Assembly: GCA_051362555.1 (NCBI GenBank)
Contig: CM120643.1
Coordinates: 11,194,144 to 11,258,143, forward strand
Length of the DNA stretch: 64,000 nucleotides
Reading direction: 5' to 3'
From: Lingula anatina
Taxonomy: Eukaryota; Animalia; Brachiopoda
Shown here: positions 9,001 to 35,013 of the stretch, piece after piece
Numbering within the stretch: position 1 is the stretch's first letter
How the letters are laid out: the number at the start of each line of letters is the position of its first letter
Program-made: the position numbers and the translations under genes
The notes under the pieces: generated by a model
Seen by the model: the letters and a program-made list of their open reading frames with translations, nothing else
Told to the model about the DNA's origin: nothing
Databases searched by the model: none

Positions 9001-10625
9001 CCAGCACTGTGAGATTTCTTCAATTTTGGCCAGGTAGGGATGAAAAATTTTTTTCTTCATTATGGTGTCACGTAGGTGTGTTTGGTCATTTGTAGTAAGA
9101 ATAAAGTGCTGAGAGAGTGGTGGTGTCAACATTAAGGAAGAAATAGAGCAAAAACTCTGTCTCCCCCCCCCCTCTCAGATTCTGTTCTCAGAGCTTATTT
9201 TTGGATCATCTTTAAAGCTAGAATTGGGGGCCTTGATGAAGTGACCCGGGTGCGTTTCCACATTTTTTATGCAGGTGTGGTAGATTGATTTTCGTCACTT
9301 TTTGGAAAAATCGGAGACGGGTCGATTTTTGGTGATTTTGAGTGATTTTGAACAGTGCCAGCACTGTGAGATTTCTTCAATTTTGGCCAGGTAGGGATGA
9401 AAAATTTTTTTCTTCATTATGGTGTCACGTAGGTGTGTTTGGTCATTTGTAGTAAGAATAAAGTGCTGAGAGAGTGGTGGTGTCAACATTAAGGAAGAAA
9501 TAGAGCAAAAACTCTGTCTCCCCCCCCCCCCTCTCAGATTCTGTTCTCAGAGCTTATTTTTGGATCATCTTTAAAGCTAGAATTGGGGGCCTTGATGAAG
9601 TGACCCGGGCGCGTTTCCACATTTTTTATGAATGACAGGTGTGGTAGATTGATTTTCGTCACTTTTTGGAAAAATCGGAGACGGGTCGATTTTTGGTGAT
9701 TTTGAGTGATTTTGAACAGTGCCGGCACTGTGAGATTTCTTCAATTTTGGCCAGGTAGGGATGAAAATTTTTTTTCTTCATTATAGTGTCAGGTAGGTGT
9801 GTTCGGTAATTTGTAGTAAGAATAAAGTGCTGGAAGAGTGGTGGTGTCAACATTAAGGAAGAAATAGAGCAAAAACTCTGTCTCCCCCCCCTCTCAGATT
9901 CTGTTCTCAGAGCTTATTTTTGGATCATCTTTAAAGCTAGAATTGGGGGCCTTGATGAAGTGACCCGGGCGCGTTTCCCCATTTTTTATGAATGACAGGT
10001 GTGGTAGATTGATTTTCGTCACTTTTTGGAAAAATCGGAGACGGGTCGATCCTGGGTGATTTTGAGTGATTTTCATAGGTGCCGGCACTGTGAGATTTCT
10101 TCAATTTTGGCCAGGTAGGGATGAAAATTTTTTCTTCATTATAATGATCGGTAGGCGTGTTTGGTCATTTGTTGTGAGTGTAAAGTACTGGAAGAGTGGT
10201 TGTGTCATTATTAAGGAAGAAATAAAGCAAAAACTCTCTCCACCCCCCCCCCCCCCTCTCCAAATCCTGTTCTCAGGAGTGCTTTTTGGCAATCTTTAAA
10301 GCTGAAATTGGGGGCTTTAATGAAGTGACCCGGGCACGTTTCCACATTTAATATTCAATTCAATTCAATTTCATTTTATTAAACCTTTAAGCCCTACGGC
10401 TCATCAGAATATAAAACAGTGACAATATAAAGTTATATCTAATCAACTACCATGACTACAATAACTACTACTGATACAAACAATAATAATAATAATAATA
10501 ATAATAATTGAAATTGAATTGAATATGAATGACAGGTGTGGTAGATTGATTTTAGTCACATTTTCGAAAAATCAGAGACGGGTCTATTCTCGGTGATTTT
10601 TGGGTGTTTTTAATAAGGGCCGACT
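1..10625. repeat. Satellite DNA array, ~362 bp monomer, about 29 head-to-tail copies (continues beyond window start)
   Basis: Monomer (...GTCAGGTAGGTGTGTTCGGTC...CTCTCAGATTCTGTTCTCAGAG...ACAGTGCCGGCACTGT...) recurs about every 357-369 bp. Most length variation is in a poly-C tract. The last ~1.5 monomers (from ~10050) are a divergent variant. Confidence 0.99.
10355..10526 (-). mobile_element. ~170 bp insertion inside a satellite monomer; probable truncated non-LTR retroelement 3' tail
   Basis: Splits the monomer motif CACATTT..TATGAATGACAGG, with AATAT on both sides (putative TSD). Minus strand reads AGCC-GTAG-GGCT stem-loop, AATAAA, then (TTGAA)n. An (AAT)n run and an inverted TTGAA run lie at the other end. 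Confidence 0.6.
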
Positions 10626-12263: not shown

Positions 12264-12800
12264 TTTTTATGTACAGACACAGATGTGCCTGTACTTATTG
12301 CCGTCACCTGCGTCTGTTGTCGCCGTCGTCGCCGAGCACTTTCACCGATAACACGATAAGTGAAAAACCATTTTACTTTTTGGCTTGAAACTTCCAGAAC
12401 TAATGAATATTCATAATCCGCAGGTCAAGTTCGAAAATCAGCATGATTGGGTCATTTTTACGTAAGTGATGCTGTTTTTTTCCCTTTTTTTTCAGCGTAT
12501 ATGCAACACCGATAACACAATTAGTGGAAATCCGTTTTACCTTTTGGCTTAAAACTTACAGAACTGATGAATATTCATAATACGCAGGACAAGTTTGAAA
12601 ATCAGCATGATTGGACCTTTTTTTTTTTTTTTTTTTTTTTTGCTTTCTTCAGCATATATGCAACACTGATAACACATTTCAGCTGATAAGCTAATTGTTT
12701 TGCAATTTACAGGAGTGATCAATCTTACTTAAATACAGTTTGGGTTTGAAAACCAGCTTGATTGGTTCAGTTTTGATGAAGTTATGCCCTTTTTTGTATA
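12264..12800 (+). mobile_element. Helentron/DINE-1-like (HINE) non-autonomous element with tandem core repeats
   Basis: T-rich start TTTTTATGTACAGACACAGA, a (CGT/CGC)n stretch, then 2-3 copies of a ~160 bp core (CACCGATAACACGATAAGTG...AACTGATGAATATTCATAAT...CAAGTTCGAAAATCAGCATGAT). Same family at 29575-29980 (+) and 31930-32220 (-). Confidence 0.6.
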
Positions 12801-13570
12801 TAAGTGTTTTTTCCTCAGATTCTCAGGCATGTTAATAGTCTCATTATTAAACTAATTAGATGCGTAGAAGAGTTCTTTTGACATTTTCTGCATCTTAACA
12901 TCATTGTTAGTTGATTATATAAAAATGTCAAAAATGGAAGTAAACTCATGAGTCATATCACTGAAGTTTGTCAGATTCAATCATTTACTACGTTCAGAAT
13001 CTCAGAATAGAGCAAATTGGACATTTAAAATTGTTCCATTGATATTTTCCCCATGTCAACAATTATCATAGTTGATCTTATTAACATGACAGTAAATGGA
13101 TCATTTTGCTTTATATAAAGTGTTGAAAATGGCAAGAAATGCATTTCAGTAGTGGTCAGTCTGTAATTGTCCCTTGAGTAATCATTAGTTAACTTCAGAG
13201 CTATTACGTCACTTTCCTAATTAAGTTTCAAGTGACCATTAAATGAGATTACATAAAACACACATGTTGTGATTTCCCTGTAAGCTCCCATCAGTTTAGC
13301 TCTGTGCCAGATACAGTTTGTGAAAGTCTAAATCATTAGTGTCGTGTAATTTATAATCAGTGATAATTATGTAGGTAAATGTTGTTTAATATTGCAAATA
13401 AGATTACAGAAGAAAAAACTATTTTGTGTAATGCCAACATTAATGCTATAGATGAATAACAGTGCTTTATTATCCTCAAACTCAATGGGGTTATTAATAT
13501 CATGTTAATACAGCTGGATTAAAAGTATATATAGCATCTTTATTGGTATATATTTTTCTTTTTTAATCTT
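12700..13570 (+). repeat. Dispersed repeat with a rearranged, mostly inverted copy at ~31070-31900 and a direct partial copy at ~32245-32380
   Basis: 12960-13075 matches the reverse complement of 31115-31218. 13160-13525 matches the reverse complement of 31570-31890. 12830-12900 matches 32310-32380. Confidence 0.75.
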
Positions 13571-15224
13571 AAATTTTTTAAACACTGGCATTTTCAAATA
13601 TGACTTAACTCCCATCCACCTGGCCCTGGTTTCAGAAAAAAACTTTAGTTCCCTGGCTTAATTGATTAGGATTTCCAAGAGAGTGCTTTTACACTGCTCC
13701 CAGTAGGGTAAGATGTGACCATGTAACCTTGGTAATTAAGTTCTTAGCCAGGGAAATTGACAAGTTTGTTTGTGAAACATGGGGGCCTGAACCTCTGTAC
13801 ATTTTCTGTATTTCCACATAAGCTATAATATTGGTGTTAATGCGGTTAAATATTATATAATATTGTTTTGCACTGTCATAATTTTTCACATGTTGGTATT
13901 TTCATTATGTGAATTTGAACTTTCATGGTCCTGAAACTGTAATCTTAGTGACCATCTTACCTGTTGTGCACGATTAGAATTTAGTGTTGACTTTGCTGTC
14001 ATAAGTATTATTTATTATTACATCAAAATTGACAAAGTGACCTATATTCTACGTCCTTATTTTCTGCTTTTGTCTGTACATTTGACGGCTTTGCTGCCTT
14101 TTTTGTGCTATCCGAGCCTGAACATCGGACAAGTCAGTAAACACCCACATCAGTTCAAGTGCCCTTTTCTTTTTGATGTAAAAAGCATGTGTCGTACTTC
14201 CCGAGCCTGCCGTTTAGTTATATATTGTTAACATTACCTTCTCATTTCAGGAGTCTACTGAGATACTGAGAACTGTACGACAGCCGCCTGCTAGCAACCA
14301 AGTCTTTCGTCCACGTTCTGGGACCCTACGAGCATTCATGCATCTGTTGTATTAAAGTTGAATAAATACATTTGTAATTCCTTGGTTTTTTTTCACTTTG
14401 ATATGAAATAATGATGATAAAAATATTAGTAATAATAAAGCGAAAGGGGTAAAATTATAAAGATATGATTACTGTCTGAGCACTTTTAAGTTTAGTCTGC
14501 TAAAACTGATCTGTAAATATTGAGTTTGTTTTTACAGTAACAGAATGTCTTAAATAATGCAGTGTTTTGTAAATAATTGAGTTTGAGTATTTTAAGAAAA
14601 CTACAAAATTTTACAACAGCCCACATTTATAAACACAATTTATATGAATTTACGACTCGCTTTTGAAAATCTATTCTACATTTTGTTCTATAGTTAAACG
14701 GTTTTTTAATATTTCTTGGAATGAATTAGTTCGTCCTCCCCGATGTCATTTTCATAATTTTATACGGGTCCATTTTTAAAGGGTTCTGGTTTTTGCTACA
14801 GAAAATTGATTCTAATTTTACGCCCTTCTCATCTCATGAATGCTTCAATTTTATACAAAAATGAGAAAGTTGACACACTTTTTGAAATGGTAACAGTTGA
14901 AATCTGCTTCTCCAACAAAACATGGGGTCTGTACGTTCTGATATTTTTTAAAGAATGAAAATAATATAAAAAATATATTGATCCTTTAGTTTTGTGACGT
15001 ATATTTATTTCCAAATAGTCCCAAATGCACAGACAAAAATATAGCATTAAACTGTGGAAAAGAAAATTTTTAGACCAAACATTTAATGTCTATTTCTGCA
15101 TTATACAAGTTTATATCATCCAAATACTTTGGTAACGTTATTAAAAATGTGTTCTTTATACACTTAATTACAGTGGCATTAAAATGTAATTTTGTGATTA
15201 TTTAACTTGCACCTCAAGTGGGAA

Positions 15225-15830
15225 TAAATTGCCCCACATGCCATCCCTCATTTGGAATGGACTCACCCTACCTGTCACCCTTCAAATTGAATGGACTCGC
15301 CCTACCTGTCACCCCTCAAATTGAATGGACTCGCCCCACCTGTCACCCCTCAAATGAAATGGACTCGCCCCACCTGTCACCCCTCAAATTGAATGGACTC
15401 GCCCCACCTGTCACCCCTCAAATGAAATGGACTCGCCCCACCTGTCACCCCTCTGACGAAATGGACTCGCCCCACCTGTCACCCCTCTGACGAAATGGAC
15501 TCGCCCCACCTGTCACCCCCTCTGACGAAATGGACTCGCCCCACCTGTCACCCCCTCTGACGAAATGGACTCGCCCCACCTGTCACCCCTCTGACGAAAT
15601 GGACTCGCCCCACCTGTCACCCCTCTGACGAAATGGACTCGCCCCACCTGTCACCCCTCTGACGAAATGGACTCGCCCCACCTGTCACCCCTCTGACGAA
15701 ATGGACTCGCCCCACCTGTCACCCCTCAAATGGAATGGACTCGCCCCACCTGTCACCCCTCAAATGGAATGGACTCGCCCCACCTGTCACCCCTCAAATC
15801 AAATGGACTTGACCCATTTGTCACACTTAA
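15225..15830. repeat. 34-bp minisatellite, about 17 copies (ATGGACTCGCCCCACCTGTCACCCCTCTGACGAA / ...CTCAAATTGA)
   Basis: Direct tandem repeats with a 34-35 bp period, no spacers, degenerate outer copies. Confidence 0.97.
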
Positions 15831-18855: not shown

Positions 18856-20869
18856 CAACTGGTACAGTGCATGGCACATTTTTATTGAAGGGGTAGTTGT
18901 GGAAATCGGTCTCAAAGAACGGCGAATCTACAGAATATTATTTTATTATTGTGACAAAACCATAACCCTGGCTGCATAGACCTATTTGTCACCATAGACC
19001 CTATTTCTTAAGGACAACAGTTTATATCAAATCAAAAATTGAAAATAACAATGACGATAAAAATAACAACTCAAATATTATTAAAGTGAATGATGCTCAT
19101 ACGGTCGGGGAATAGTGTTGCACGAGATGAAAAACATTTGTACGGTCCCCGGGCTATCTATTTTAATTGAAGATCTATACATTGCATGCAATCTGGCCCT
19201 CTCCGTGACAAGCTAAAATGTTTCCAATTGATTTAAAGCATGCCTACGAAGTTTCTGCGACTCCGCGGTAACTTCGTTGACTTAAAAACATGCCCCAGAA
19301 ACGGAAAGCCGCGGAAACGAATGCAGGCTCTCCTGGGTCCGGACAAATTACAGTTTGCAATTTTAGATAAAATCCGGTATAGTTTAGGATAAGAGAACGA
19401 TTTCACAACAATTTATTGCACGTTATCATGATGATGTATGCGTCGTCAATAATATTTCCTTTCTATTCTTCACTTAAAGGTCTGTAAAATGATGCTTAAG
19501 CGGGGATTGTCAGCAGCTGTTGTACCATACTGGGTGAATCTGTACAAATTGCAGGCCTACATGTATGCCAACTGCTGTCAGAAACACCCTGGCGATTGCT
19601 TTAGTGGAGATCAAGTAAGTTTTTCCCCAAACTATCACTCCTTTTATTAAAATGAAATGTATACTGTACTCAGTTTAACTAATTGGTGGTCAAATGATTG
19701 ATGTTTTTAACACTTGTGTAAAAACCCGTCTTCCGTGGCGAACTGTCAGCTGTTTTTTCATGTAATTTGCTGATTAAACAGAAAATTAATTATTTGAGCA
19801 TGTTCAACAATTCACTCTGCCTATTTCCATGTCAAAAAGAACTGGTGTATTTTTTTCTTTTTGCATAAAGTATTTATAGTAAATGAATAAAATAAGAAAG
19901 GAGAAAGAAATTTGGCAGAAAATCCAACGACTTAACATTTTCATAAAGCAAAGCTTGCAACAAAACCAAAAATAAAATTTTGAAATTCCTGTAACAATTT
20001 ACATAAAATACTATTGGCATCACGCAACATGTACGTAGTAGCCGAAGGAAAGATGAACAAATAATGAGTAATGACAAAAGCAACAGTGATTTTAGAACAA
20101 ATATCTATATCGCAAACAAGCTTATTACACGTAGTCTAGCTCACTTAATACAAATCACATGTACTGAAAAACGGGCTTTCTCAGATGACTGTTAACTAGG
20201 GCTCATTTTTAATAGGTTTAATTTTCCCACTATTTTTAACAACAAACTACATATTAACATGGACAATCAACAATGTGTCATGTTGCGCAGTGTTGAACGA
20301 CCCGCGTTTAATTGGACGCATATTCAATATCTATCTGCAAGATTTTATTGGGCTTGACTTTTGACTTTATCCTGTTTAGTGCGTTTATACAACGTATTTA
20401 AACAATGTGAGTAAAAAAATTCTAGTTCCTGAACGTAACGATCGGCCGTTGTGGAACGGCCCTCTGGTTTAATTAATCTCATTTCCCTGCTGATGATCTG
20501 TCGACCTCAGATTATTTTTTCAGTTAAGTGCTTTATTTATTTCCCCTCCTTTGTGATATTTCAAGAAAGGGAGAGAGAAAGAGAGAGAATTCAGAAAATG
20601 CGTAAAATATATTATAATATAGCGGGCAAAACTTTGATCTCTGTCGATTTTTGTATAACGGCCTCTTTCGATCATGAGCTTATGACTTGAGCAACAATAA
20701 TTTGAAATCATCTTTCTTTGTTTAGAAATTAAAGGTAATAAGTTTTTAAGTTTAAGGAAATGAAAGGTATCGCTCAGTATCGCTATTCAAAACGATTTTG
20801 TAGAGTTTATTACTGATACATTACGATACATTAATGTCAGCGAATAAAGTTTGTTGTGCACAGTCTGCT

Positions 20870-21310
20870 ATTCTAGTTCTTAATAAACTTGACCCAATAT
20901 TCAATACATTTTAGTCATGTATGACACATAAAGAGGAACTCTACCAAATTCGCTTAATGCTAGAAAATCTGTCACATTTTGTTTTAAGGAAGCCAGTCTT
21001 TTGCAAAAACGGGCATGGATTTGTTCGACTTTTGTGCACTGTTGAAATCACCATGGTTCTGCTGCATACAAGGTATATTAAAAGTAGTTTAACAGTTGCA
21101 TCAAACAGTTTAGAGGCTTCTTGATGGTCATAATATCATAAGTATTTTTGACAACGGAATATTCCGTTAGATGCCTTTGTCGCTTGTAATGATAGGCGTT
21201 CCTGTGTTCTAGACCATGCTAATCGAAGGGTGAACAGGATTCCTAAGTATTTGTAACTGGATACGACCTCAGTTCTATTTCCTTTATAAGTCCGTTTTTC
21301 ACATTTTACC
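20870..21310 (-). pseudogene. Degenerate non-LTR retrotransposon ORF2 fragment (RT thumb/C-terminal region, RTE-X/CR1-L2-like)
   Basis: Minus-strand translation across stops and frameshifts: EVVSSYKYLGILFT..LSLQATKA..KLFDATVK..YAAEPW*F..VEQIHARFCKRL..ALSEFGRVPL..YW. The YKYLG and downstream motifs are typical of LINE ORF2. Confidence 0.85.
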
Positions 21311-21754
21311 TGTAATACACAGTGGCGGGTTTCGATTTCTGGTCCCATCTCGTAATTACATTTTTACAATCCTGGGCACTTTTCAGATTTGCCCACATAT
21401 TGCTAATAAACAAATTACATACACACGATCAAAGAATTCTTATATCACTTTGTTAGAGAATGGTGTAAGTAAACACTGAAAACAGAAACTAAATATCACC
21501 ACCGAGTCCAAAGTTATGCTAAAGCATAGTCAGAAAAATTACCAAAAAGTTTTCCCGTTTTAGTCATATGAAACAAAAAGCAATCTGAAATAAACTAAAG
21601 CAGTGTTTGGCATAGCATTTTTTTTGGATTATAAAACACTCAATAGCATGGTAGAAGCAAAAAAAATTGAATATTAGCAGGTATGAGAAGTATCCCAGAA
21701 AAAAGTCCTTTAATGGCATGATGGTATTTCCGTTGAAATGTCCATTCCGAAACA

Positions 21755-22705: not shown

Positions 22706-22829
22706 CTACAAAGTGAGGATCAAATAATTATAATTATCATCTAGCTACATGTAATTATAACTTGGACTTTAGAATGAAAAAAATTTTAATTCTTCCTTTG
22801 CTCTTAGATTAATTATCCCAGCAGGCACA

Positions 22830-22975
22830 CAACGTTGAATCAACGTTGGCAATTCAACGTTGAATCATGATTGATAGTTCAACATTGTTTCAACATTAGA
22901 AATCTCAATTAACGTTGATTATATGTTGATTTAGCATTGATTATATCTTGATTTAACATTAAATAAAAGTTGAGA
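22830..22975. repeat. Left subterminal repeats (CAACGTTGA(A/T)T-type ~11-mers)
   Basis: Direct reading; copies degenerate inward. Confidence 0.85.
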
Positions 22976-23858
22976 CAAATAGCATTTTCAATGTCTTTAT
23001 TTTGTCACTGCATAAAAGGAAAAATGCTGCTAATTTAAGTTAAAATATACATAGTTTACAACATAGCAATAATAAATAAAAAAAACTAAGAACAACACTT
23101 TTTTTTTTACAAAACAAAGCTGCACATCGAATCTGAACTAACACAAAAATTGTAATTAAGTATGCATGTACATTGGGGAGGGGAGGGAGAGATTTTTGCA
23201 CACCTTAACCTAAATTATACTGTACATTGTCATTTTTAAAGTAAATTATAATTCAAACATATCATTAATAATCATAATCGCTATAGTTCTGTATTAAATA
23301 AATCTTGAATAATGAATGAAAAAACATTGTTTTTTAGATGATGGAGAGTTCATTATAACAAAATTATAAATAATTAATCATGCAGTAATTAACTGTTTCA
23401 ATTCAACTTGCATGCTGTCTACAAACTCTGAAAAAAGAATTATGTATGGTACCCCAGCATAAAACCTCATGTCTCATATCAAACCCCATGTCCCTTTCAC
23501 TACTACAAATTCAAAAAAGGGCTATGGAAGTTAAATGTCAAGCAACATATCTTGTCAAAACACTGTATACAGTACGCATGACAACAGAACCAAATTGTAG
23601 AGTGAGTGAGTTACTGGCTGCGCTCGGAGCAGATTCTTACATCTTGACGCATGTGCAGTTAAGTTAGAGAGATAGAAATGGCTGTTGTGGTTGCTTTGAT
23701 AAATGTTTGTCGATTTTTGTGCAACAAGACGTAGAAGATGAGGTGCTTATACACACGACAGATATGAGTGCAATCTGATGAACTCCACAGTTTAGAGATA
23801 TAACTGTAAGCATTCTAGCAACGTCCTTCACCAAAATAATAGTTCAACTTCCTAATTG

Positions 23859-26800
23859 CTACTTTCTTCCTCCTCCATCTTTTCTTTCTGGTGCCCATTT
23901 TAGATACTTAACAATGCTGTCAGAGACTTCCTTCTCTGTAGATCTATATTTTGACATCATGACATCTGGAAAAAAAAGTGAAGTAAAAATGTAAGCATTT
24001 ATGTATCGAATGTATGCTGGCAGGTGTGCCTATCATAGCTCATTGAGGGATTCTAAGAATGAGGTTAAGATTGGGGTTAAATTCCAACTAGGGTGCAAAA
24101 TGTAAGAACTATTTTTTTAGGCTTAGGTGCCCAAATTGTAGCTGATAGATAGCTGATAAGTTTATTACAAAAATCAAATTGGGCACAAATTACAGCAGTA
24201 AATGTAAAACACAATGCAACATTAATTTAATTACCTTTGATCACCCTACAAAAGTTGGTGTGCCCAAAAGGAAATTTATTTTTCTTTCCTGAGAAATTCA
24301 TCGTAGACATGATTCTGTTTGTCATACACCTACAAATAATATTTATAAAACTAGAGGATCAGAGAGGCGATATCGCCTCTGGATATTGTACCACCAGCTG
24401 GAGTAAGCGCATTCATATGGAACCCCCCCCCCCACCAAAAATTTAAAAAATGGACGCCACCACCAGTCTATAAAATGCAATAAACAAGAGTTCTAAAAAT
24501 AAAAAAATAAAAAAAAAATCGAAAAACATAACTGTTAAAATGGTCCAATCAAGCAGATGTTCAAATTGACCTGTATTTTCCTAACACTGATCACTCCTGT
24601 GATTTTCTAGACAATAGGCCTACTGGTTTTCCTTGAAATGCGTTATCAGTATTGCATATATGCTGACAAAAGAGAAAACCTGGGGACAACAGTAAGCAGA
24701 TCTCTGCTAGTTTTGAAGATATGAAGGGCAAGAAAATATGCAGAGTTCAGTTTGTGGTGAAAAAGTAGGTCAAAGGTCAATTTCAAGGTCACAGTATATG
24801 ACTTCCTATATAAGTTCAATAGTAGCTATGGGCATTTCTTTGCGAATTATGGAGATATGAAGGCCAAGAAACATGCAAAGTGCAGTCCATTATAAATAGT
24901 AGGTCAAAGGTCAATTTCAAGGTCACAGTAAGATTGCCTGTGTATGACTTCCTATTCAAGTTCAATAGTAACTTTGGACGTATCTCTGCCAGTTTTCGAG
25001 ATATAAGGGATAGAAAATTTGCAAAGTTCAGTTCATGGTGAAAAGTAGGTCAAAGATCAATTTCAAGGTCACAATAAGATTGCCAGTATATGGCTTCCTA
25101 TTACAGTTCAACAGTAACTATGGGTGTATCTTTGCCAGTTTTGGAGATATAAGGGCTGGAAAATTTGCAAAGTTCAGTTCATGGTGAAAAGTAGGTCAAA
25201 GGTCAATTTCAGGGTCATATTTAGATTGCCAGTATATGACTTCCTATTCAAGTTCAATAGTAACTATGAGCGTATTTTTGCCAGTTTTGGAGATATAAAG
25301 ATCAGAAAACTTGCAAAGTGCAGTACTGAAAAGTAGGTCAAAGGTCAATTTCAAGGTCACAGTAAGATTACCTGTATATGACTTCCTATTCAAGTTCAAT
25401 AGTGACTATGGGCGTATCTTTGCCAATTTTGGAGATATAAAGATCAGAAAACTTGCAAAGTGCAGTTCATCATGAAAAGTAGGTCAAAGGTCAATTTCAA
25501 GGTCACAGTTAGATTACCAGTATATGACTTCCTATTCAAGTTCAATAGTAACTATGGGCGTATCTCTGTTAATTTTGGAGTATTTCACATTTTCCCCATT
25601 GAATATTGCGATGTTGTAATTTTTGATATAGCACAACGCCTAAACCATATCGAAAACAAAAAAATGGACGCCACCTCCAGTATTGCACTTGACAAGGTCT
25701 ACAAAATGCAATAAACAAGAGGTCTCTGGCATTTACCGTTCCAGAATTAGAGCGAGTTTTCAGTTTTATATCTAATGGCTACTTCTCCCGTGAAAATGCA
25801 CTGATTGACCCCAAACTCCCAAAGATGAAAGGAGTCCCCAATGGTAACCCCTCACTATAACAGGAGAGCTAAGGGCTGTGTAGTTTCCAAAAATTAGCAC
25901 AAACAATTATTTTTTTGCAGAAAATTCCCATTTTTAGAAAATTTTAGCTTGTTTGACCTTGAAAAAAAGGTCAAAAGTCAAATCCAAGGGCATATTTGGA
26001 ATCTCCACATATGACTTTCGGTCAGACTTCTATAGTAATTTTTCCCATAATTCCTTTGGTTTGGGAGATATTCAGCATTGAATTTTCAAAAATTTTGACA
26101 AGGGTGCGTTTCAACAAGTGTCACGCCCAGGCCAATGCACCAACTGAGACAAAAAAAAAACCAGGGTGTTCAAGTTGAGATTATATGTGACCTAAATCCA
26201 AGAGATGGGGACACAGGTCCTTGTGGTCTAGGAGGAGAAGCGGTAACGGTGACTTGTTTCCGGCGCCCGACTGCGGAGCCGGCGGAGCCGCAGGAGCCGG
26301 CAGAGCTGTACGAGACGGGTTGGGACTAAAACCATGAGTACCGCCAGCGTACACGCTGGTGGTACTAATAAAGGATATATTGAATAAAATCAGAAATGTC
26401 TTGGTTTGATCAAGAAAAGTCCAAAAAATTGGAATAATAACCTGCACTTATTTTTAAAATTCTGATAAAAAGGTTTTTACTGCCAAACAAACCAGTATAA
26501 CGTAGCTATACACATGTAGGTTCGACTTTTTAATGTAATTAATTTACTAACATAGACAGAAATGTGTCAAGTGTAAAAGTATTAGTTATCATTTCATAAA
26601 GGTTTGATCATTTCTTATACCCGAGTTCTAGGTTTCAGATAATGAAATGTATTTTACACATTAAACACAGGAAAAAATTAAGTAAATGCATATATATTAG
26701 TATTTGTCCTACCTTTGCATGGCCTTTTTAGTGTGATCACACATGTTAATCCCTCCTATTGCAGCAACTGTGGCTTTCTATCAAATGGAAAAAATAAATG

Positions 26801-29525
26801 TCATTATTATAAAAATAATAACTAGTTTTTGTAATTATATTATTGAAACTGTGTGACAAAACTTGCAAATATACAGGCATCAAACAGCAAAACATGCTTT
26901 CTTTTTGGTAATTTTAGGTACTGATGTTATATATGAAATGCCCACAGTCACAAGATGGACAGAGACATACATATGTAACATTGATCCATATTGCATGAAC
27001 TAATAAAAAAGGGAAAAAATCTTCATATTTGAGTTTTGAAAGAGTAAATCTTTTAAATTTTTAGCTACATGTACTTGTTTGAAATAATTGAATCAAATAA
27101 AAACCATAAGTACAAGCATGAAGTTGACTGATTATGTTGCCATTTTCTGCCTAAAATTAACTGAAATGTGATGAACTTTAACTGTTATAAGTATGTACAC
27201 AAATAAGCATTTGTGAGGCTAATTTTCAAAATAAAAAATGCATCTTCCTCTCACAGATTTGGCTTGTTGGATCAAATCAGTACAACACAAAGACGGTGGT
27301 GATTATTATTAGAGCAAGTGAAGAATGATTCAATTCAGTGAAAGATTTAAGTAGTTTTCAAGTTGTAGTTATACTGATCCTGATGTTACTCCATATCATT
27401 CTCATCATTTTTATCAAGTCCACCTGATCAATGATACATAGCATGGACATAATTTGAACAGAAAAGTAGTATACTTACACAAATATCATATTCTTCTTTG
27501 TCCTTCAATGCATTATCAAATTCACTGAAGGAATCCATGGTATCATGTTGTTGCATTTGCATTGTTCTCATCTCTGTGTTGTTATTAGATTGATTTTTCT
27601 TCATTAGATCTCTTATTTCTGCTAATATGTATAATACTCTTCTCTGAAAACCTGTGGAAAAAATTTACACTACATATACAAAAAAGACAATTGAGGAATT
27701 AGCAAATTTGTCCTCATCCTATGTTACAGGGTACAATTAGGCACTGAAACTTCATAAAATTTTTCCTTAGGTAAATTGCTATTTTTGCCCTTTCTAGTCA
27801 TTGCCTGTCTCAAATATTCATTCAAATTCACCCAATTGCAAAGTCTCCATAAGTAAGTGTTTAAATTTTGACTTAACAAAATGAAAATTAGTGTCAAAGA
27901 AAGAACCTGTGCATTATGTTAAGATTAGTTTCATATTCCCTAATTATTATATCATGTTCTATATATGGCATTAACCTAATTCTAAAATTTGAGAATAATA
28001 AATGACAACTTCACGTATGCCTTCTGCAAAAAAAAAAAAAAAAAAAAAAAAAAGGTTCACTCTTGGGGGTTGACATGTACAGATTTTGTCATGAAATTGA
28101 AAAAAAAAGTACATACGCTCTTCGGACATTGGAAATGTCGATCTCCTTGGTATTGGGCTACTTCTGCTATGATGACCCCCTCGACTCATACTCATGCTTC
28201 TCTGAGCCATGCGGTCACTGCTTCTGCTACATCTACCAACACGGTCCCTGCTTCTGCTACGTCTACCAACACGGTCCCTGCTTCTGCTACGTCTACCAAC
28301 ACGGTCCCTGCTTCTGCTACGTCTACCAACACGGTCACTGCTTCTGCTACGTCTACCAACACGGTCACTGCTTCTGCTACGTCTACCAACACGGTCCCTG
28401 CTTCTGCTACGTCTACCAACACGGTCACTGCTTCTGCTACGTCTACCAAACCGGTCCCTGCTTCTGCTACGTCTACCAACACTGTCACTGCTTCTGCTAC
28501 GTCTACCAACACGGTCACTGCTTCTGCTACGTCTACCAACAGGCACGCTCCTGTCAGGGGGCGTTGGGCTCCTTGGTGGTGGGCTTATTGTTCTAGGAGG
28601 AACCCTTCTGTCCATGTTAGCTGCCTCTAAAATGCCAATATACATTATGAGGCATCAGTTTTTCTGTCTTTTACCTTTGGCAAAAATGTTTAAAAGATGG
28701 TGCTTCTTAACATTGCATACTGAATTTCTTATTAAGCAATTTCTTAGTAGCACTCTTACCGCTACTACTGCCCCCCGTGGTGAATTCTGCTCCAAAGGTT
28801 TTTTTCTTGGGGATTCTCTTCCTAAAAACTCCTAAGTCTTCTTCATCAGTATCTTCTGTGCAGGTAATGTTAACTGTCTCGCAATCTTTCTTGTTGTCTG
28901 TATAATTAAAATATATTATTATCATATCTTTTGTTCCATCTTATGCATGTATCTAACGTAACTTTCTGCTTTGGTCAAGCAATCTTATTTATAAAAATGA
29001 AAAGTGCAGTATTATTTTACAGTATTGAAAATATTCTGAATTCATAGTCAATGTAGACTAACTATGGGCATAGGCAGGAGAGAGAAATCTGCTCATTAAC
29101 ATGTCCCTTTGCCAATGGATAATTCCAAAACCCTGCATACATGTAGTATACTACCTTTACTAATTAATATTGCCAGGTATGAAATGTAATAAATCTGCAA
29201 TTTTCTTAATATTAAAACGGAGAAAATTTTCAAATGGCACAAACTAGATCTTTTGCAAACATAAATGATATTGTTTATGAAGCTAAAGCATTAGTAGTGT
29301 GTGAAGATTAAACAGAATTCTGTACTGACCAGATGATTTCTTTACCCGCACAAGAGGGTACTTGATCCAAGTATTTTCAGGTACCCATCTTTCTCTAATT
29401 GCTCTCATGGCACCAAGGTTAGTAACATTAGGCGGCCACAGAACCTCATCGTCCACCACCCAGTGAGAAGGGATAACCTCCTCTACCTCCACATTGTTCT
29501 CCTCCCAAATAACTCTACTCCACAT
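23859..29525 (-). CDS. Intact 7-exon gene, 427 aa, DUF4806-like transposon accessory protein with a central RS-rich repeat
   Basis: Coding exons (minus): 29525-29330, 28897-28760, 28626-28117, 27651-27479, 26777-26713, 24329-24235, 23965-23859. All introns are GT-AG with matching phases (1,1,1,0,2,1). Total 1284 nt = 427 aa + TAG, no internal stop. N-term MWSRVIWEE..EEVIPSHWV..VLWPP..W..YPL; then FPMSEERFQRRVLYILAEIRDL; C-term AIGGINMCDHTKKAMQRCMTNRIMSTMNFSGKKNKFPF...IVKYLKWAPERKDGGGRK*. Family assignment is from recalled motifs, not a search. Confidence 0.88.
24348..26372 (-). mobile_element. ~2 kb Helentron/HINE-like element in coding intron 5 of the DUF4806-like gene
   Basis: One end is AAACTAGAG with hairpin AGAGGCGATATCGCCTCT (CTAGTTT on minus). 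The other end is hairpin GTACCGCCAGCGT-AC-ACGCTGGTGGTAC then TAATAA. It has an internal tandem array and GCGGAGCCG short repeats. Confidence 0.7.
24700..25582. repeat. ~146 bp tandem repeat, 6 copies, internal to the HINE-like element
   Basis: GTAGGTCAAAG(G/A)TCAATTTC at 24765, 24899, 25045, 25191, 25333, 25479. Confidence 0.95.
28212..28541 (-). repeat. Coding 30-bp minisatellite, about 11 copies, encoding (VGRRSRS[S/R]DR)n
   Basis: Unit CGGTC(A/C)CTGCTTCTGCTACGTCTACCAACA. Lies wholly within coding exon 3. Confidence 0.97.
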
Positions 29526-29574
29526 CTGTAATAAACAGAAAAAGTGTGATCTACTACATGCAGACCATTATTAT

Positions 29575-29980
29575 GATGTGTCTGTACATATATCCATCAT
29601 CTGCATCTGTCGTCGCCGTCGTTGCCGTCGCCGTGCACTTTTACCGATAACACGATAAGTGGAAAACCATTTTACCTTTTGACTTGAAACTTGCAGAACT
29701 GATGAATATTCATAATACACAGGTCAAGTTCGAAAATCAGCATGATCGTGTCACTTTTAGGGAATTTATGCTGTTTTTTCACTTTTTTCAGCATATATGC
29801 AGCACCGATAACACGATAAGTGGAAAACCATTTTACCTTTTGACTTGAAACTTACAGAACTGATGAATATTCATAATACGCCAGTCAAGTTCGAAAATCA
29901 GCATGATTGGGCCATTTTTAGGGAATTTATGCTGTTTTTTCACTTTTTTCAATATAAATGCAACACTGATAACACAATAT
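29575..29980 (+). mobile_element. HINE-like element, same family as 12264-12800, in the intron just upstream of the start-codon exon
   Basis: (CGT/CGC)n stretch, then two near-identical ~161 bp cores beginning ACCGATAACACGATAAGTGGAAAACC at ~29643 and ~29804. Confidence 0.7.
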
Positions 29981-30165
29981 AAGAACAAGGCAGCAAAGCT
30001 GTCAAATGTACAGACAAAAACCAGAAAATAAAAACGCAGGAAATAGGATACTGTCAATTCTGATGAACTAATGTATTATGCTTACTGTAACTGCATAGCC
30101 AACATCAAATTCTTATTTTGCATAACATTGGATTAGGATGAAAGTAAAATGTGTATCAAGCGTAA

Positions 30166-30382
30166 GACTAAGTTCCAATACCTAGATCAATCTAACAGGA
30201 TCAATGCAACTCCAAGGGGTTTCTCACTAAATTGCTTTCAGTTTGAGAGTCTTAGGATTCTGGCATGCCAGTTTCAGTAGGCGTGACAGACAACTAAGCC
30301 ACTTACATTGATTGCAATTTAGCGAGAATTCCCATGGAGATAGATCGATCCACAGTTAGCGTGATAGGGTCTGGAAATAGTC
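30166..30382. mobile_element. Fold-back MITE-like element (~105 bp imperfect inverted arms)
   Basis: CTCCAAGGGGTTTCTCACTAAATTGC pairs with GCAATTTAGCGAGAATTCCCATGGAG. Complementarity runs from GACTA/TAGTC at the ends to a short central loop near 30273. Confidence 0.65.
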
Positions 30383-30475
30383 CCTAAGGTGTCAGGCTGA
30401 TAAGAGTTAAACTTTGGAAATGCCAGAATGAGGTACAGTGAAAATTACACACAAAAAAAAATTGCTTAACTCATT

Positions 30476-30479
<4 letters not shown>

Positions 30480-30544
<65 letters not shown>
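30480..30544. repeat. (TA)n microsatellite
   Basis: Direct reading; a second (TA)n lies at ~33073-33112. Confidence 0.97.
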
Positions 30545-30548
<4 letters not shown>

Positions 30549-31929
30549 AATTTTTTTTTTTGGGCTGTATGTCAATCCTAAGAATCATTCTTGTAACTTA
30601 ACAAAATACAGAAAATGTTACAAAGTAAGAGTACAGGGCTCCTGGCAGATGGGAGTGATAAGTCACAACTTGAAAATGCCAGTATAGCACTCTATAAACC
30701 TGCATTGCCTCCAAAACAGAAAACAATCACACTGGTTTTCAAACACAAGCTGCGCACTTCTGTCTTATGAAACTTTTCACTAAGTTTCAGTATCGTAAGT
30801 AACATGGTTTTCCCTTTATCGCTATCCTGGCAGCAGTGTCCAAAATAGGGTTTTCTTCAACTTTCATGCAATAAAACATAATACTTAACAGCATAATGAC
30901 CATCAAATTTTTTATAAAAAAATAAAAGTATCATGAATATTCAGAAAATGTGATTTGGGAAGGTCTTCAAGGCCATGGAAGTTCAGAGTCACACTTTCAA
31001 AATGCCAAAATGTAAACAAGAGATAACTGTACTGAAATGATTTTCTTTCCATTTTCAACACCTTTTTTAAAACAAAATGATCAATAAACTGTCATTTTTA
31101 AATGTTCAACTAGGAAAATTGTTGACATAGGAAAAATAGCAATAGAACAATTTTCAATGTCCAATTTGCTCCATTTGCAGATGCTGAACATAGTGAATGA
31201 TTAAATCTGACAAACTGCAATGATGAGTTCCTTTCCATTTATGATACTTTATTACACAATGCACAATATTATAACAGGTTTACCGTCATTTTTATATAAT
31301 CAACAAACAATATTGTTAAGAAGCAGAAAATGTCAAAACAACACTTTTACATATCTTATTAGTTCCATAATGAGACTGTTAACATGCCTAAGAATTAAAT
31401 CTGAAGAAATAACAATTATATAAATATACAAAAATACAGAAAATGCACAGCACTTCTGGTGGATGGGAGCATAAAATCACATCTTGAAGATGCTTGTGTT
31501 TGAAAAATAATTAAAAAAAATTTTTTAATAAAACGTAAAAAATTCCAATAAAGCTGCTATTCAAACTTTTAATCTAGCTGTATTAACTTGATATTAATAA
31601 CCCCACCAAGTTTGAGAAAAATAAAGCACTGTTATTCATCTATAGCATGTTGGCATAACACAATCTTTTTGTTGTAAATTTATTTGCAATGTTAAACACC
31701 ATTTATCTGCACAATTATCACCAAATCCTAATTTTGTGACACAGTTAAGAGAGCTAAACCTATGGGACTTTACAGGGAAATCTCAAGGAGTGTTTTATGT
31801 AATCTCATTTAATGGCCAATTGAAAATTAATGAGTAGGCAAGTGACTTTATAGACCTTAATTTAATTAGTGATCACCCAAGGGACAATTTTATAGACTGT
31901 CATCCATACAGTACCATCATATAGCACAA

Positions 31930-32221
31930 AGGTGTTGCATACATGCTGAAAAAAGTGAAAAAACAGCATTACTTCCCTAAAAATGACCCGATGATGCTGA
32001 TTTTCAAACTTGACCTGCATATTATGAATATTCATTAGTTCTGCAAGTTTCAAACCAAAAGGTAAAATGGTTTTCCACTTATCGTGTTATCGGTGCTGCA
32101 TATATGTTGAAAAAAGTGAAAAAACAGCATATCTACCCTAATAATGACCCGATCATGCTGATTTTCGAACTTGACCTGAATATTCATTAGTTCTGCAAGT
32201 TTCTGTGTCTGTACATAAAAA
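31930..32221 (-). mobile_element. Inverted, internally deleted copy of the 12264/29575 HINE-like family
   Basis: Reverse-complement cores, ending in TCTGTGTCTGTACATAAAA (reverse complement of the 12264 start). Confidence 0.7.
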
Positions 32222-33068
32222 CGGATTGGCCAATTGTCATTATCCTCACAGGAGTGGTCAATCTTACTAAAATGCAGGTTGAGTTCGAAAATCAGCATCA
32301 ATTATTAGGCACGTTATCAGTCTCATTATTGAACTAATAAGATGCGTAAAAGTGTTTGTTTGATATTTCCTGCATCTTTACAACTGTAAATTCTGTAGTG
32401 TACGTAGCTGTACGAAGACATTTTCATGACTTGACAATGATTAATCAACATAGACATTTTTTGACATGTAATTTATTTTTTAAAAATTATATGATATCTT
32501 GTTGGCGTAAATTTTTCAAAATATACATTTGAATTGCAGACTATTAACTACATGTAATATTTAAATGTTAAAATTGCAATATTTCCTGAGCATTTTTTTT
32601 TTTTTGCTGATATATAAAAAGGTGCTAAAGGGAAATTGTACTAGTGTCTACAAGTCTTTCAAAAGTTAAATACCATATAAAAAATACTTCGCTATTAAAA
32701 AATGAAAAGAATGTACATTCAATGGAAATGTCTGCTTTTATTTCACAATAAAATATTGTATGATGTACAGTTACATAAAGAAAAGATAAAGTAAAAAACA
32801 AGATCACAGTATTGTAGGCAGGATTAATGGGAAAAAATCCAAGGAAACAGAAGTAAACTTCTATTATTTCTGAGAAGAATCTTTTTGCAAATAAAATATA
32901 TTATTCAAAAAGAAAACTGGTCATTTAGTAAAGGGGCGCTGGATAAAAATTAAATTTCAATCTGCTTTAGAAATTTGTAAAAAAAAATTCATTAATCTAA
33001 ATAGTGAAGTAATCATGCATGTAGCTGTTGTAAATTAACTTGAATGATGGATTCCTTCATGTATCCTC

Positions 33069-33114
<46 letters not shown>

Positions 33115-33464
33115 TGAGGTGCCTTCAATTTAACTTGCATGTTGGCTTTTCTGGAAAGAAAAAAAAAGATTTAGATGTATTTAAAAAAGAGAATTCTAGA
33201 TATGCAAAAATATTTGTGCACAATATCTTACTTACATTATGTAAATAGACTTGCAGTAACTGTTGTAAACTTATATGTTGGCTTCTCTGAAGAAAATACA
33301 TATAAATGTATTTAAAAAAGAGAATTCTGGGTATACAAAAATATATCAGTGGATATAAGAATATGAAGAACACATGCACACACACACACACATACATTTT
33401 TTAGATAGAGAGAGGGACAACTCTTCCATTATAACTGACTAATTTAAATGTCAGTTCAATATGA

Positions 33465-33885
33465 TTGAATCAATGTTGAATCAAGGTGAAAAACTTACTC
33501 AAACATCAACATTCAAAAATGCAAGTTGAATTAAAGTTGAAATATTGTTGGTTTATCAACTCAATCTTACTTCAAACTTGAATCAATGTTGATATGCCAA
33601 CTTTGAATTTGTTGTCGTTGAATCAAAGTTGAATCAATGTTGAAATGTCAACGTTGAATTTGTTGTCGTTGAATCAACGTTGAATCAACGTTGAAATGCC
33701 AATGTTGAATTTGTTGTCGTTGAATCAATGTTGAATCAATGTTGAAATGCCAACGTTGAATTTGTTGTCGTTGAATCAACGTTGAAATGTCAACGTTGAA
33801 TTATGGTCGTTGAATCAACATTGATTCAACGTTTATCAACGTCTCAACATAAATTCAACATTGATTCAACGTTGAATCAACGTTG
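33465..33885. repeat. Right subterminal repeat array (CAACGTTGAAT 11-mers arranged in ~54 bp higher-order units)
   Basis: TTGAATTTGTTGTCGTTGAATCAA recurs at ~33603, 33654, 33705, 33756, interleaved with palindromic TCAACGTTGA. Confidence 0.92.
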
Positions 33886-35013
33886 TGTGCCTGCTGGGAT
33901 GCTTTTATATTTTCAAGAAAGTTGGGAACATCTAATTTAAAACATTTTATTATGTACCAGTTGACAGTATTTCATAAAAAAGTGTGAATAAATTGTGAGT
34001 CACAAAGCTGCTTTTCAGTTACAGTATCCAACAAACATTAAATATTTCAGTAGGTGAGAAAGCGCGTAACCATATGCTAAAGCTGCCGGTAGTAGCAATA
34101 CCCAGTGCGAGTGTCTTGGGGACTGCGAATGTGTAACACGAGGAAACGTTAGCACTTACGTACGCTACTTACCTTTCACTACCAGGCATTTTGGATTCCC
34201 GGCCACCTTCCTACATGTATTTGAAAACTGCCCATAGTGAATATAACTCGCTTACCTGTTAAGGTTCTCTAAACATGGTCTATCTTCACCCATGATTTGT
34301 GTTTGTTTACATCTCGAATCTGACCAGAGACACCGCGTTATTTCAAACTGGGCCAATTAAGATGGCTTACAGACGGGGCGTGGCAGCTGCAGACGGTGAT
34401 TATTATTATTATTATTATTTGCGATATTAAGGCACAATATTAGCACTTTCACATAAATGTGATTTATTCTGAAATGAGAGGCCTATATATAAGTACCGGT
34501 AGCTATGGGCAAATGGCTTGGATAATATCAGTTTATTTTGTAATACGTTTATATGCACACATCATGAAAACAATTGACAAATAATTTCCCATTGAAATGC
34601 CTGCAAAACTGTATGAATAAATAATTTGGTGAAATATTTCATAACCCTATGGACAGCAGACTCACTGACATAACTGCCAATGACACAAAAATATACTGTC
34701 AAAATGTTACCGGTACTTTTCATAACGTCATGCAGTACTTGAACACGTGCACACCCCTTGTGTGTAAACAAACCACTGCACTGCTCAAAGTCGGAAGCTC
34801 CCTCCGCCAGCGGTCTCACACGGCACAGTACCTGTGCCTGGTCCTGCAAAAAAATTGATGCCTCAATTGACGCCCCAGCCTGCTCCTTGATATCAAAATT
34901 AAACCTAACAACACTAAAAAATACCAGAAAAAAAAAAAAAAAAAAAAAAAAAAACGGGAAAAATCACTAATTTTTTTCACAGCACTTCATTCGTTTATAA
35001 CAATACGTGATTA

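What the first reader, a model, noticed from the sequence alone, without database searches (positions are those of the whole stretch)
22817..33898. EnSpm/CACTA-like element with no visible transposase but a fully intact spliced DUF4806-like gene, in a satellite island
Seen: near-perfect TIRs, an AT TSD, palindromic subterminal arrays, and a 7-exon 427-aa ORF with canonical splice sites and consistent phases. Its introns carry other repeats, and the other recognisable coding remnants in the island are decayed. Known: CACTA/EnSpm elements encode a second DNA-binding protein (TnpA in maize Spm) that binds subterminal repeats. Inference: this protein may be the animal counterpart binding TCAACGTTGA arrays, or a chromatin/anti-silencing factor that lets the element persist in satellite heterochromatin. 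The element would then be a non-autonomous partner mobilised in trans.
Basis: partly seen in the sequence, partly recalled or inferred. Interest (0 to 1): 0.8.

Follow-up and report, generated by a model that had tools for sequence, protein, structure and literature searches.

The report
Transposase-less transposon keeps BEN helper gene
An 11-kb cut-and-paste transposon copy in an animal genome (likely the brachiopod Lingula) lacks a transposase but keeps an intact seven-exon gene whose protein is predicted to carry a BEN DNA-binding fold and likely serves the element family as a helper by binding palindromes under its ends, while this copy itself is likely a young, silent passenger.

Summary
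In detail: ends match at 31 of 32 nt (CCC…GGG), AT flanks both sides, 21 TCAACGTTGA-like palindromes lie only under the ends, and a 7-exon, 427-aa ORF is intact. No transposase was found; much of the upstream DNA is a nested repeat. The protein has a Trp-rich domain of unassigned fold, an RS-repeat linker and a DUF4806 domain; a relative's model matches BEN domains (BEND6, Z 10.8). Introns 4 and 5 are spliced as predicted, but in a roughly 90% identical paralogue; no read of at least 99% identity to exons 1-5 appeared in the two runs checked for it, and exons 1-4 had near-zero depth in four more. Sister copies are broken (frameshift, deletions), and neutral drift leaves such a young ORF intact about half the time, so intactness does not show selection on this copy. 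Best reading: a non-autonomous derivative of an animal CMC/EnSpm-type element that kept its accessory BEN gene, a likely analogue (not homologue) of maize TnpA. Binding and the transposase partner are untested here. This scan noted the same arrangement on other genomes before; I found it in no paper searched.

The parts
22815..22816 (.). AT, left copy of the probable 2-bp target-site duplication
22817..22848 (+). left terminal inverted repeat (CCC start)
   Evidence: 31 of 32 nt match to the right end
22829..22918 (.). left subterminal array, 4 palindrome copies (the first two inside the TIR)
23001..23858 (-). probable 3' UTR; one AATAAA at about 23001
   Evidence: low read depth from other copies at 23518-24029; extent inferred
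23859..23965 (-). exon 7: last BEN helix, family C-terminal motif and stop
24235..24329 (-). exon 6 (BEN core)
   Evidence: junction to exon 5 in 7 paralogue reads
24349..26370 (.). nested high-copy repeat(s) in intron 5, with a 146-bp x 5.4 tandem array at 24792-25580; borders approximate
26713..26777 (-). exon 5
   Evidence: both borders marked by spliced paralogue reads
27479..27651 (-). exon 4 (start of the DUF4806 region)
   Evidence: junction to exon 5 in 4 paralogue reads
28117..28626 (-). exon 3, with the 30-bp x 11 minisatellite (28212-28541) encoding the RS-rich linker
28760..28897 (-). exon 2 (acidic then basic linker)
29330..29525 (-). exon 1: Trp-rich 65-aa domain; ATG directly after an acceptor-like sequence, so an upstream leader exon is likely
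29575..32382 (.). nested repeat with long inverted arms; a relative lies outside the element at 12282-14103
33470..33886 (.). right subterminal array, 17 palindrome copies, partly in a 51-bp unit
33867..33898 (-). right terminal inverted repeat
33899..33900 (.). AT, right copy of the probable target-site duplication

Best explanation
This is an 11.1-kb DNA transposon copy with CCC-type ends, palindrome arrays and no transposase, likely derived from a two-gene animal CMC/EnSpm element, and the gene it kept encodes a protein predicted to have a BEN DNA-binding domain that likely acts as the family's accessory end-binding factor. Steps: (1) shown: ends, arrays, intact spliced frame, no transposase, several related copies, some broken; (2) predicted: BEN fold of the C-terminal domain, from a 43-46% identical relative; (3) inferred: two BEN domains bind each 10-bp TCAACGTTGA palindrome, as Insv and BANP/BEND6 bind 10-bp TC...GA palindromes, coating the ends to help a transposase supplied in trans and to set the element's transcription, the job TnpA does in maize with a different fold; (4) inferred: this copy is intact because it is young, is cut off from its leader exon by the nested insertion, and contributes little; the protein is made by a diverged paralogue.
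For: Ends and arrays match the CCC termini and 2-bp repeats described for animal CACTA-related elements (PMC1636069). The same 22-nt end occurs in 5 metagenome contigs; 3 of 5 have further copies of the palindrome behind it and L004 is a 984-bp two-ended element flanked by AA/AA. 397 relatives at E<=0.001; 38 of the best 150 have both domains; named ones come from molluscs, a crustacean and fish. 57 of 64 relatives match DUF4806 at E<=0.05; the window protein scores 297.6 bits on a profile of 62 non-Lingula rows. Model of P0019 (pLDDT 88): the five best of 48,161 chains are BEN domains, best BEND6 Z 10.8, rmsd 1.9 over 83 residues (Foldseek agrees in rank, E 0.087). Insv binds TCCAATTGGA as a homodimer (PMC4281564); BANP and BEND6 were solved on TCTCGCGAGA using helix 5 (PMC10206803). 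Copy decay: P0001 is frameshifted inside the last helix; DNA contigs show a 752-nt gap taking 481 coding nt (2 of 2 runs), an 83-nt gap in exon 4 (1 of 2) and a copy joining intron 3 to sequence resembling the right array (2 of 2). Family-level constraint: 5 of the 7 coding differences shown in DNA contigs are silent (40 of 90 rows shown). Spliced paralogue reads at introns 4 and 5 (4 and 7 reads, 1 of 2 RNA runs).
Against: No transposase-bearing partner was seen here: no genome was held, no long fusion was found, and none of 5 loci with the same end carries a transposase or this gene. The two-gene parent rests on PMC1636069 (a second spliced ORF in SmTRC1, not shown to be DUF4806) and on earlier unchecked AI notes. 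In animals the HTH DNA-binding domain is typically fused to the transposase, so the arrays may be bound by the transposase itself. P0001 and the single exons hit no DUF4806 model directly. The fold comes from a relative, and Z 10.8 is within the range the tool warns about for helical domains, though all top rows are one family. BEN domains differ in helix-5 contacts and preferred sites, so the likeness of palindromes is only a hint. RNA samples are of unknown tissue and 6-30% of each run was read.
Confidence: 0.68

Rival explanations
1. Same element, different job: the transposase's own DNA-binding domain reads the arrays, and the BEN protein is a chromatin or RNA-processing regulator (repressor, insulator or anti-silencing factor; its RS-rich linker could recruit splicing factors to the element's own alternatively spliced transcript).
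For: DBD typically fused to the transposase in animals. BEN-solo proteins act as repressors and at insulators (listing, 85). 8 of 38 two-domain relatives have 12 or more RS/SR dipeptides in the linker, built from different repeat units. The two-ended 984-bp element L004 keeps the ends and motif without the gene.
Against: The RS-rich hits are favoured by an RS-rich query and 30 of 38 linkers are not RS-rich. No RNA-recognition domain was found. The 10-bp palindrome resembles known BEN sites.
Confidence: 0.3
2. A helper-only family: copies without transposase but with the BEN gene multiply as their own lineage because the gene aids their mobilisation or protects them from silencing in cis, so this copy's intact frame is selected.
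For: Near-identical sequence covers all of exons 1-5 in both DNA runs at several times the depth of single variants (depth is not a copy number). 5 of 7 shown coding differences are silent. Nested insertions lie outside exons.
Against: Broken sisters; no reads of at least 99% identity and near-zero depth on exons 1-4; neutral survival 0.35-0.62 at 0.4% divergence; a protein acts in trans, so a single copy gains little; a sister contig differs just upstream of 29572, so the upstream structure is not shared by all copies.
Confidence: 0.2
3. A domesticated host gene that binds or organises the surrounding 363-bp satellite, with TIRs left as relics.
For: Location between two satellite blocks. A slow-evolving relative in salmonid and esociform fish looks domesticated, so domestication of this family can happen.
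Against: Near-perfect ends, several decaying sister copies, no expression of this copy; the palindrome and its core occur 0 times in about 39 kb of satellite.
Confidence: 0.05

Closest known systems
SmTRC1 and animal TRC elements of the CACTA/EnSpm (CMC) group (PMC1636069; abstract, results and conclusion read, parts 1-4 of 6)
   Same: CCC termini, 2-bp flanking repeats, many internally deleted copies, a second spliced ORF (SmTRC-PrA) proposed as a TnpA analogue; the Aedes element begins CCCAG like this one.
   Different: No Transposase_21 ORF here; PrA had no detectable relatives in that study, whereas this protein belongs to a wide family with a BEN-like fold; whether PrA is a DUF4806 protein was not tested.
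Maize En/Spm TnpA and defective Spm derivatives (PMC2613891, passages; bioRxiv 10.64898/2026.08.24.746577, abstract, section 6 and passages)
   Same: Asymmetric subterminal motif arrays, a multi-exon second gene, likely leader exon with room for the transposase upstream, mobilisation of deletion copies in trans.
   Different: TnpA-like proteins have tandem tri-helical HTH domains, derive from transposase and appear restricted to flowering plants; this protein has a BEN-like fold, so at most an analogue. Termini CCC with 2-bp repeat, not CACTA with 3-bp.
DUF4806 (PF16064), a BEN subtype (PMC10789644 and bioRxiv 10.1101/2023.12.06.570431, passages citing Pan et al. 2023, which was not held)
   Same: C-terminal domain belongs with DUF4806 by relatives, language-model features and fold.
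   Different: Those passages treat DUF4806 as host chromatin genes; none mentions a transposon. Here the gene lies inside TIRs.
BEN-solo factors Insv, BANP, BEND6 (PMC4281564, PMC10206803; passages)
   Same: Single C-terminal BEN fold; known sites are 10-bp palindromes TC...GA.
   Different: 8-19% identity in the structural alignments; host genes; added Trp-rich N-domain and RS linker here; binding site unknown.

Membership tests
Animal CMC/EnSpm (TRC-type) ends, non-autonomous | TIRs beginning CCC | tested here: met
   31 of 32 nt; feature from PMC1636069
Animal CMC/EnSpm (TRC-type) ends, non-autonomous | 2-bp direct repeat at both flanks | tested here: met
   AT/AT; AA/AA in L004 with the same end
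Animal CMC/EnSpm (TRC-type) ends, non-autonomous | Empty site with one copy of the dinucleotide | not tested
Animal CMC/EnSpm (TRC-type) ends, non-autonomous | Subterminal motif arrays | tested here: met
   21 matches, 0 of 100 shuffles
Animal CMC/EnSpm (TRC-type) ends, non-autonomous | Several dispersed copies | tested here: inconclusive
   variant and deleted copies in DNA contigs; related proteins on three Lingula contigs; their ends were not seen
Autonomous CMC/EnSpm element | DDE transposase (Transposase_21-related, C(2)C and H(3-4)H motifs) | tested here: not met
   longest frame upstream 91 aa; 0 of 148 frames with a transposase family; 1935 of 4373 upstream bases match a repeat outside the element. 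Short spliced remnants below Pfam sensitivity are not excluded.
DUF4806 (PF16064) | Pfam match at the curated cut-off | tested here: inconclusive
   P0001 and single exons: no match; 57 of 64 relatives match at E<=0.05, 3 named ones above the cut-off; Atlas features 0.93
BEN domain | Five-helix BEN fold with C-terminal helix 5 | tested here: met
   model of relative P0019: top 5 rows BEN, Z 10.8, rmsd 1.9, 83 residues; window protein aligns over the whole domain
BEN domain | Sequence-specific DNA binding | not testable with these tools
   needs a binding assay
TnpA-like proteins | Tandem tri-helical HTH domain | tested here: not met
   C-domain matches BEN; N-domain is mostly beta; definition
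TnpA-like proteins | Binds the element's subterminal repeats and is needed for transposition | not testable with these tools
   needs binding and transposition assays
Tudor-like domain (N-terminal 65 aa) | Structural match to Tudor barrels | tested here: inconclusive
   model pLDDT 96; ARID4B Tudor Z 3.2, rmsd 1.9, 44 residues, tied with eRF1 Z 3.4; Foldseek no clear match; Atlas gives only unnamed clusters
SR splicing proteins | RRM plus RS domain | tested here: not met
   RS-rich linker present; no RRM in P0001 or exons

The most novel reading that the evidence does not exclude
DUF4806 proteins are the animal answer to TnpA: a transposon-borne BEN factor, unrelated in fold to the plant protein, that reads 10-bp TC...GA palindromes under CMC element ends, and this mobile pool has fed host transcription factors, as in salmonid and esociform fish where the whole module sits behind a zinc-finger-gene N-terminal exon.
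Probability: 0.35. Interest if true: 0.75.

Novelty: new variant of a known kind. Interest (0 to 1): 0.47.

Why it matters
Animal CACTA-related elements were proposed in 2006 to have a TnpA analogue, with no family or fold assigned (PMC1636069). This locus supplies a candidate protein and, in the same 11 kb, a sharply defined candidate site, so one binding assay can test the idea. If true, a large 'unknown function' family (69 and 54 genes in two Hydra species, PMC7642931 table) would be transposon accessory genes, and BEN host factors would have a mobile source. The copy itself is likely an ordinary silent derivative, and the scan has noted the arrangement before on other genomes.

Tried and rejected
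Whole-genome search for sisters and a partner: no genome held. Long fusions of this domain with a transposase: none among 7,980 candidates of 950-2710 aa (weak). Genomic context of relatives: none in viral or prokaryote contigs; 5 metagenome contigs share the end but hold neither gene. L003 seemed to carry a TNF-receptor gene as cargo; a signal-peptide exon lies outside the TIR, so the fragment sits in a host intron: rejected. Hidden transposase at 30400-33400: rejected at Pfam sensitivity (148 frames sent, all 86 upstream frames of 28 aa or more and 62 of 89 others, frames in the tandem arrays and most exon frames left out). Satellite binding: motif absent. Homodimer prediction for the relative's C-domain: no answer, score 0.02. 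Run search listed no RNA holder. N-domain fold: no family named. RefSeq name 'kinase fray2-like' has no Pfam support and is taken as a low-complexity label. The tree is the quick version; 17 near-duplicate rows were dropped. Paper searches: 'DUF4806' gave 7 papers, 5 listed, passages of all 5 read, none tying it to a transposon; 'BEN domain'+'transposase' 19 papers, seen as listings only, showed no such report. Pan et al. 2023 was not held and Repbase entries and supplements were not seen; either may already note the link.
Full report
1. Observation. The element spans 22817-33898. Its ends agree at 31 of 32 nt and begin CCC; AT flanks both sides. The palindrome TCAACGTTGA, allowing one mismatch, occurs 21 times in 64 kb, 4 times under the left end and 17 under the right, against a shuffle mean of 2.72 and maximum of 7. 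It is absent from the 362/363-bp satellite that fills 1-10349 and 35014-64000. Seven minus-strand exons joined at six GT-AG introns give 427 aa without a stop.

2. Host and copies. Exon 1 is 95% identical to a RefSeq protein of Lingula anatina, P0001, so the window is likely from this brachiopod. P0001 runs through the same six junctions, has one repeat unit fewer, five replacements outside the repeat, and leaves the frame inside the last helix. Two shorter Lingula paralogues lie on other contigs and group with the window protein (support 97, quick tree). Contigs of two DNA runs cover exons 1-5 in many short pieces; minor variants show a 752-nt gap (both runs), an 83-nt gap in exon 4 (one run) and a junction from intron 3 into sequence resembling the right subterminal array (both runs). 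One contig continues differently just upstream of 29572, with letters not found in this element. So the family has several copies, some broken. Of the 7 coding differences shown for DNA contigs 5 are silent (40 of 90 rows were shown), which hints at constraint in the family's past. A neutral simulation keeps the frame and splice sites intact in 0.35-0.62 of trials at 0.4% substitution, my rough per-lineage estimate from the P0001 differences, and in 0.02-0.17 at 1.5%. An intact frame therefore needs only youth.

3. No transposase. The longest stop-free frame between exon 1 and the right end is 91 aa. Of these 4373 bases, 1935 match a repeat whose relative lies outside the element at 12282-14103; the nested block spans about 29575-32382. 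None of 148 frames hit a transposase family. About 1 kb of AT-rich DNA remains before the right array.

4. The protein. It has a 65-aa Trp-rich domain, a linker with an RS-rich repeat from a 30-bp minisatellite, and a domain of about 150 aa. A full-library search gave 397 relatives at E<=0.001; 38 of the best 150 have both domains. Named relatives come from mussels, oysters, lobster, gar and salmonids; five Mytilus californianus members lie on five different contigs. P0001 itself hits no Pfam model, but 57 of 64 relatives match DUF4806 at E<=0.05, the Atlas ranks DUF4806 first, and the window protein scores 297.6 bits on a profile without Lingula rows, reaching 16 profile positions further than P0001. 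A model of relative P0019 (pLDDT 88) matches BEN domains: BEND6 Z 10.8, rmsd 1.9 over 83 residues, then BANP, Bsg25A, NACC1 and BEND3 (same families lead the Foldseek list without reaching E 0.001). This agrees with DUF4806 being called a BEN subtype (PMC10789644; bioRxiv 10.1101/2023.12.06.570431). The N-domain folds confidently (pLDDT 96) but has no clear match; a Tudor likeness is weak (Z 3.2).

5. Expression. In four RNA runs (6-25% of each read) exons 1-4 had near-zero depth; exon 7 and the 3' UTR had depth 2-4 in two runs, with differences in all covering reads at several places. In two more runs 24 and 22 reads lay on 26600-29560, none at 99% identity or more; in one run 4 and 7 reads leave exon 5 exactly into exon 4-like and exon 6-like sequence of a diverged paralogue. 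The intron positions 4 and 5 are thus real, but the transcribed gene is another copy. Tissues are not known, so germline expression is not excluded.

6. The ends elsewhere. The same 22-nt end occurs in 5 metagenome contigs. Three have more copies of the palindrome behind it, and L004 is a 984-bp two-ended element flanked by AA/AA. None carries this gene or a transposase.

7. How it likely works. Animal CACTA-related elements have CCC ends, 2-bp repeats and a second spliced ORF proposed to act like TnpA (PMC1636069). In maize TnpA binds subterminal repeats, both proteins are needed, and deletion copies move in trans (PMC2613891). BEN domains insert helix 5 into the major groove; Insv binds TCCAATTGGA as a homodimer and BANP and BEND6 were solved on TCTCGCGAGA. 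The element's motif has the same length and the same outer bases. I infer that the protein coats the arrays and aids or regulates a transposase supplied by an autonomous relative, and that this copy lost its transposase region, was interrupted upstream, and is a passenger (0.68 overall; binding to the arrays about even odds). Against: in animals the transposase usually carries its own HTH domain and TnpA-like proteins appear limited to flowering plants, and I saw no autonomous partner. Earlier AI notes on other genomes report such partners; I could not check them.

8. Known versus new. By its ends this is a non-autonomous element of the animal CMC/EnSpm type; it fails the test for an autonomous element and for TnpA homology. 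A DUF4806/BEN accessory gene in such elements did not appear in the papers searched, though Pan et al. 2023 and Repbase were not seen. The scan has noted it on other genomes. What this window adds is a clean candidate site, evidence that a sister lost exactly the recognition helix, spliced reads for a paralogue, and a side finding: in salmonid and esociform fish the module follows an N-terminal segment shared with zinc-finger proteins (6 DUF4806 and 21 other hits) and evolves slowly. Verdict: new variant of a known kind; interest 0.47.

Noticed in passing
proteins P0031, P0173-P0177: In Salvelinus, Oncorhynchus, Salmo, Coregonus, Dallia and Umbra the Trp-rich plus DUF4806 module follows an N-terminal segment 59-82% identical to that of teleost C2H2 zinc-finger proteins; in Umbra the fusion and a zinc-finger gene have consecutive locus tags, and the clade has very short branches. 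It looks like an old domestication by exon capture, comparable to KRAB-transposase fusions (comparison and the KRAB-like/FiNZ label are recalled; PMC11603059 passages read). Gar P0046 has a similar-looking extension but falls elsewhere in the tree.
   Followed up: partly
window 28212-28541 and relatives P0002, P0005, P0016, P0050: RS-rich linkers built from different tandem units occur in 8 of 38 two-domain relatives; databases name them as kinase-like or SRRM2-like.
   Followed up: partly
window 12282-14103 and 29575-32382: Two copies of a repeat family with 161-bp units and long inverted arms; parts are abundant in poly(A) RNA reads. A 140-bp piece also occurs at 24537-24678.
   Followed up: partly
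window 24349-26370: Intron 5 holds a high-copy repeat with a 146-bp tandem array; depth above 1000 in RNA runs, mostly 90-95% identical reads from other loci.
   Followed up: no
window about 10620-35013: The 24-kb island interrupts the satellite nearly in register (about 25 bp of the unit missing), same orientation on both sides; no terminal repeats seen at the island's borders.
   Followed up: partly
window 20520-21360, minus strand: Broken frames that resemble the tail of a non-LTR retrotransposon ORF (recalled likeness; no Pfam hit).
   Followed up: no
window 15231-15824: GC-rich 34-bp minisatellite, 17.4 copies.
   Followed up: no
L003 1959-3789: A one-ended fragment with the same terminus and palindromes sits in an intron of a host TNF-receptor/death-domain gene.
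   Followed up: yes
L004, 984 bp ending at 6105: Small two-ended element with the same terminus, the palindrome near both ends and AA/AA flanks.
   Followed up: yes
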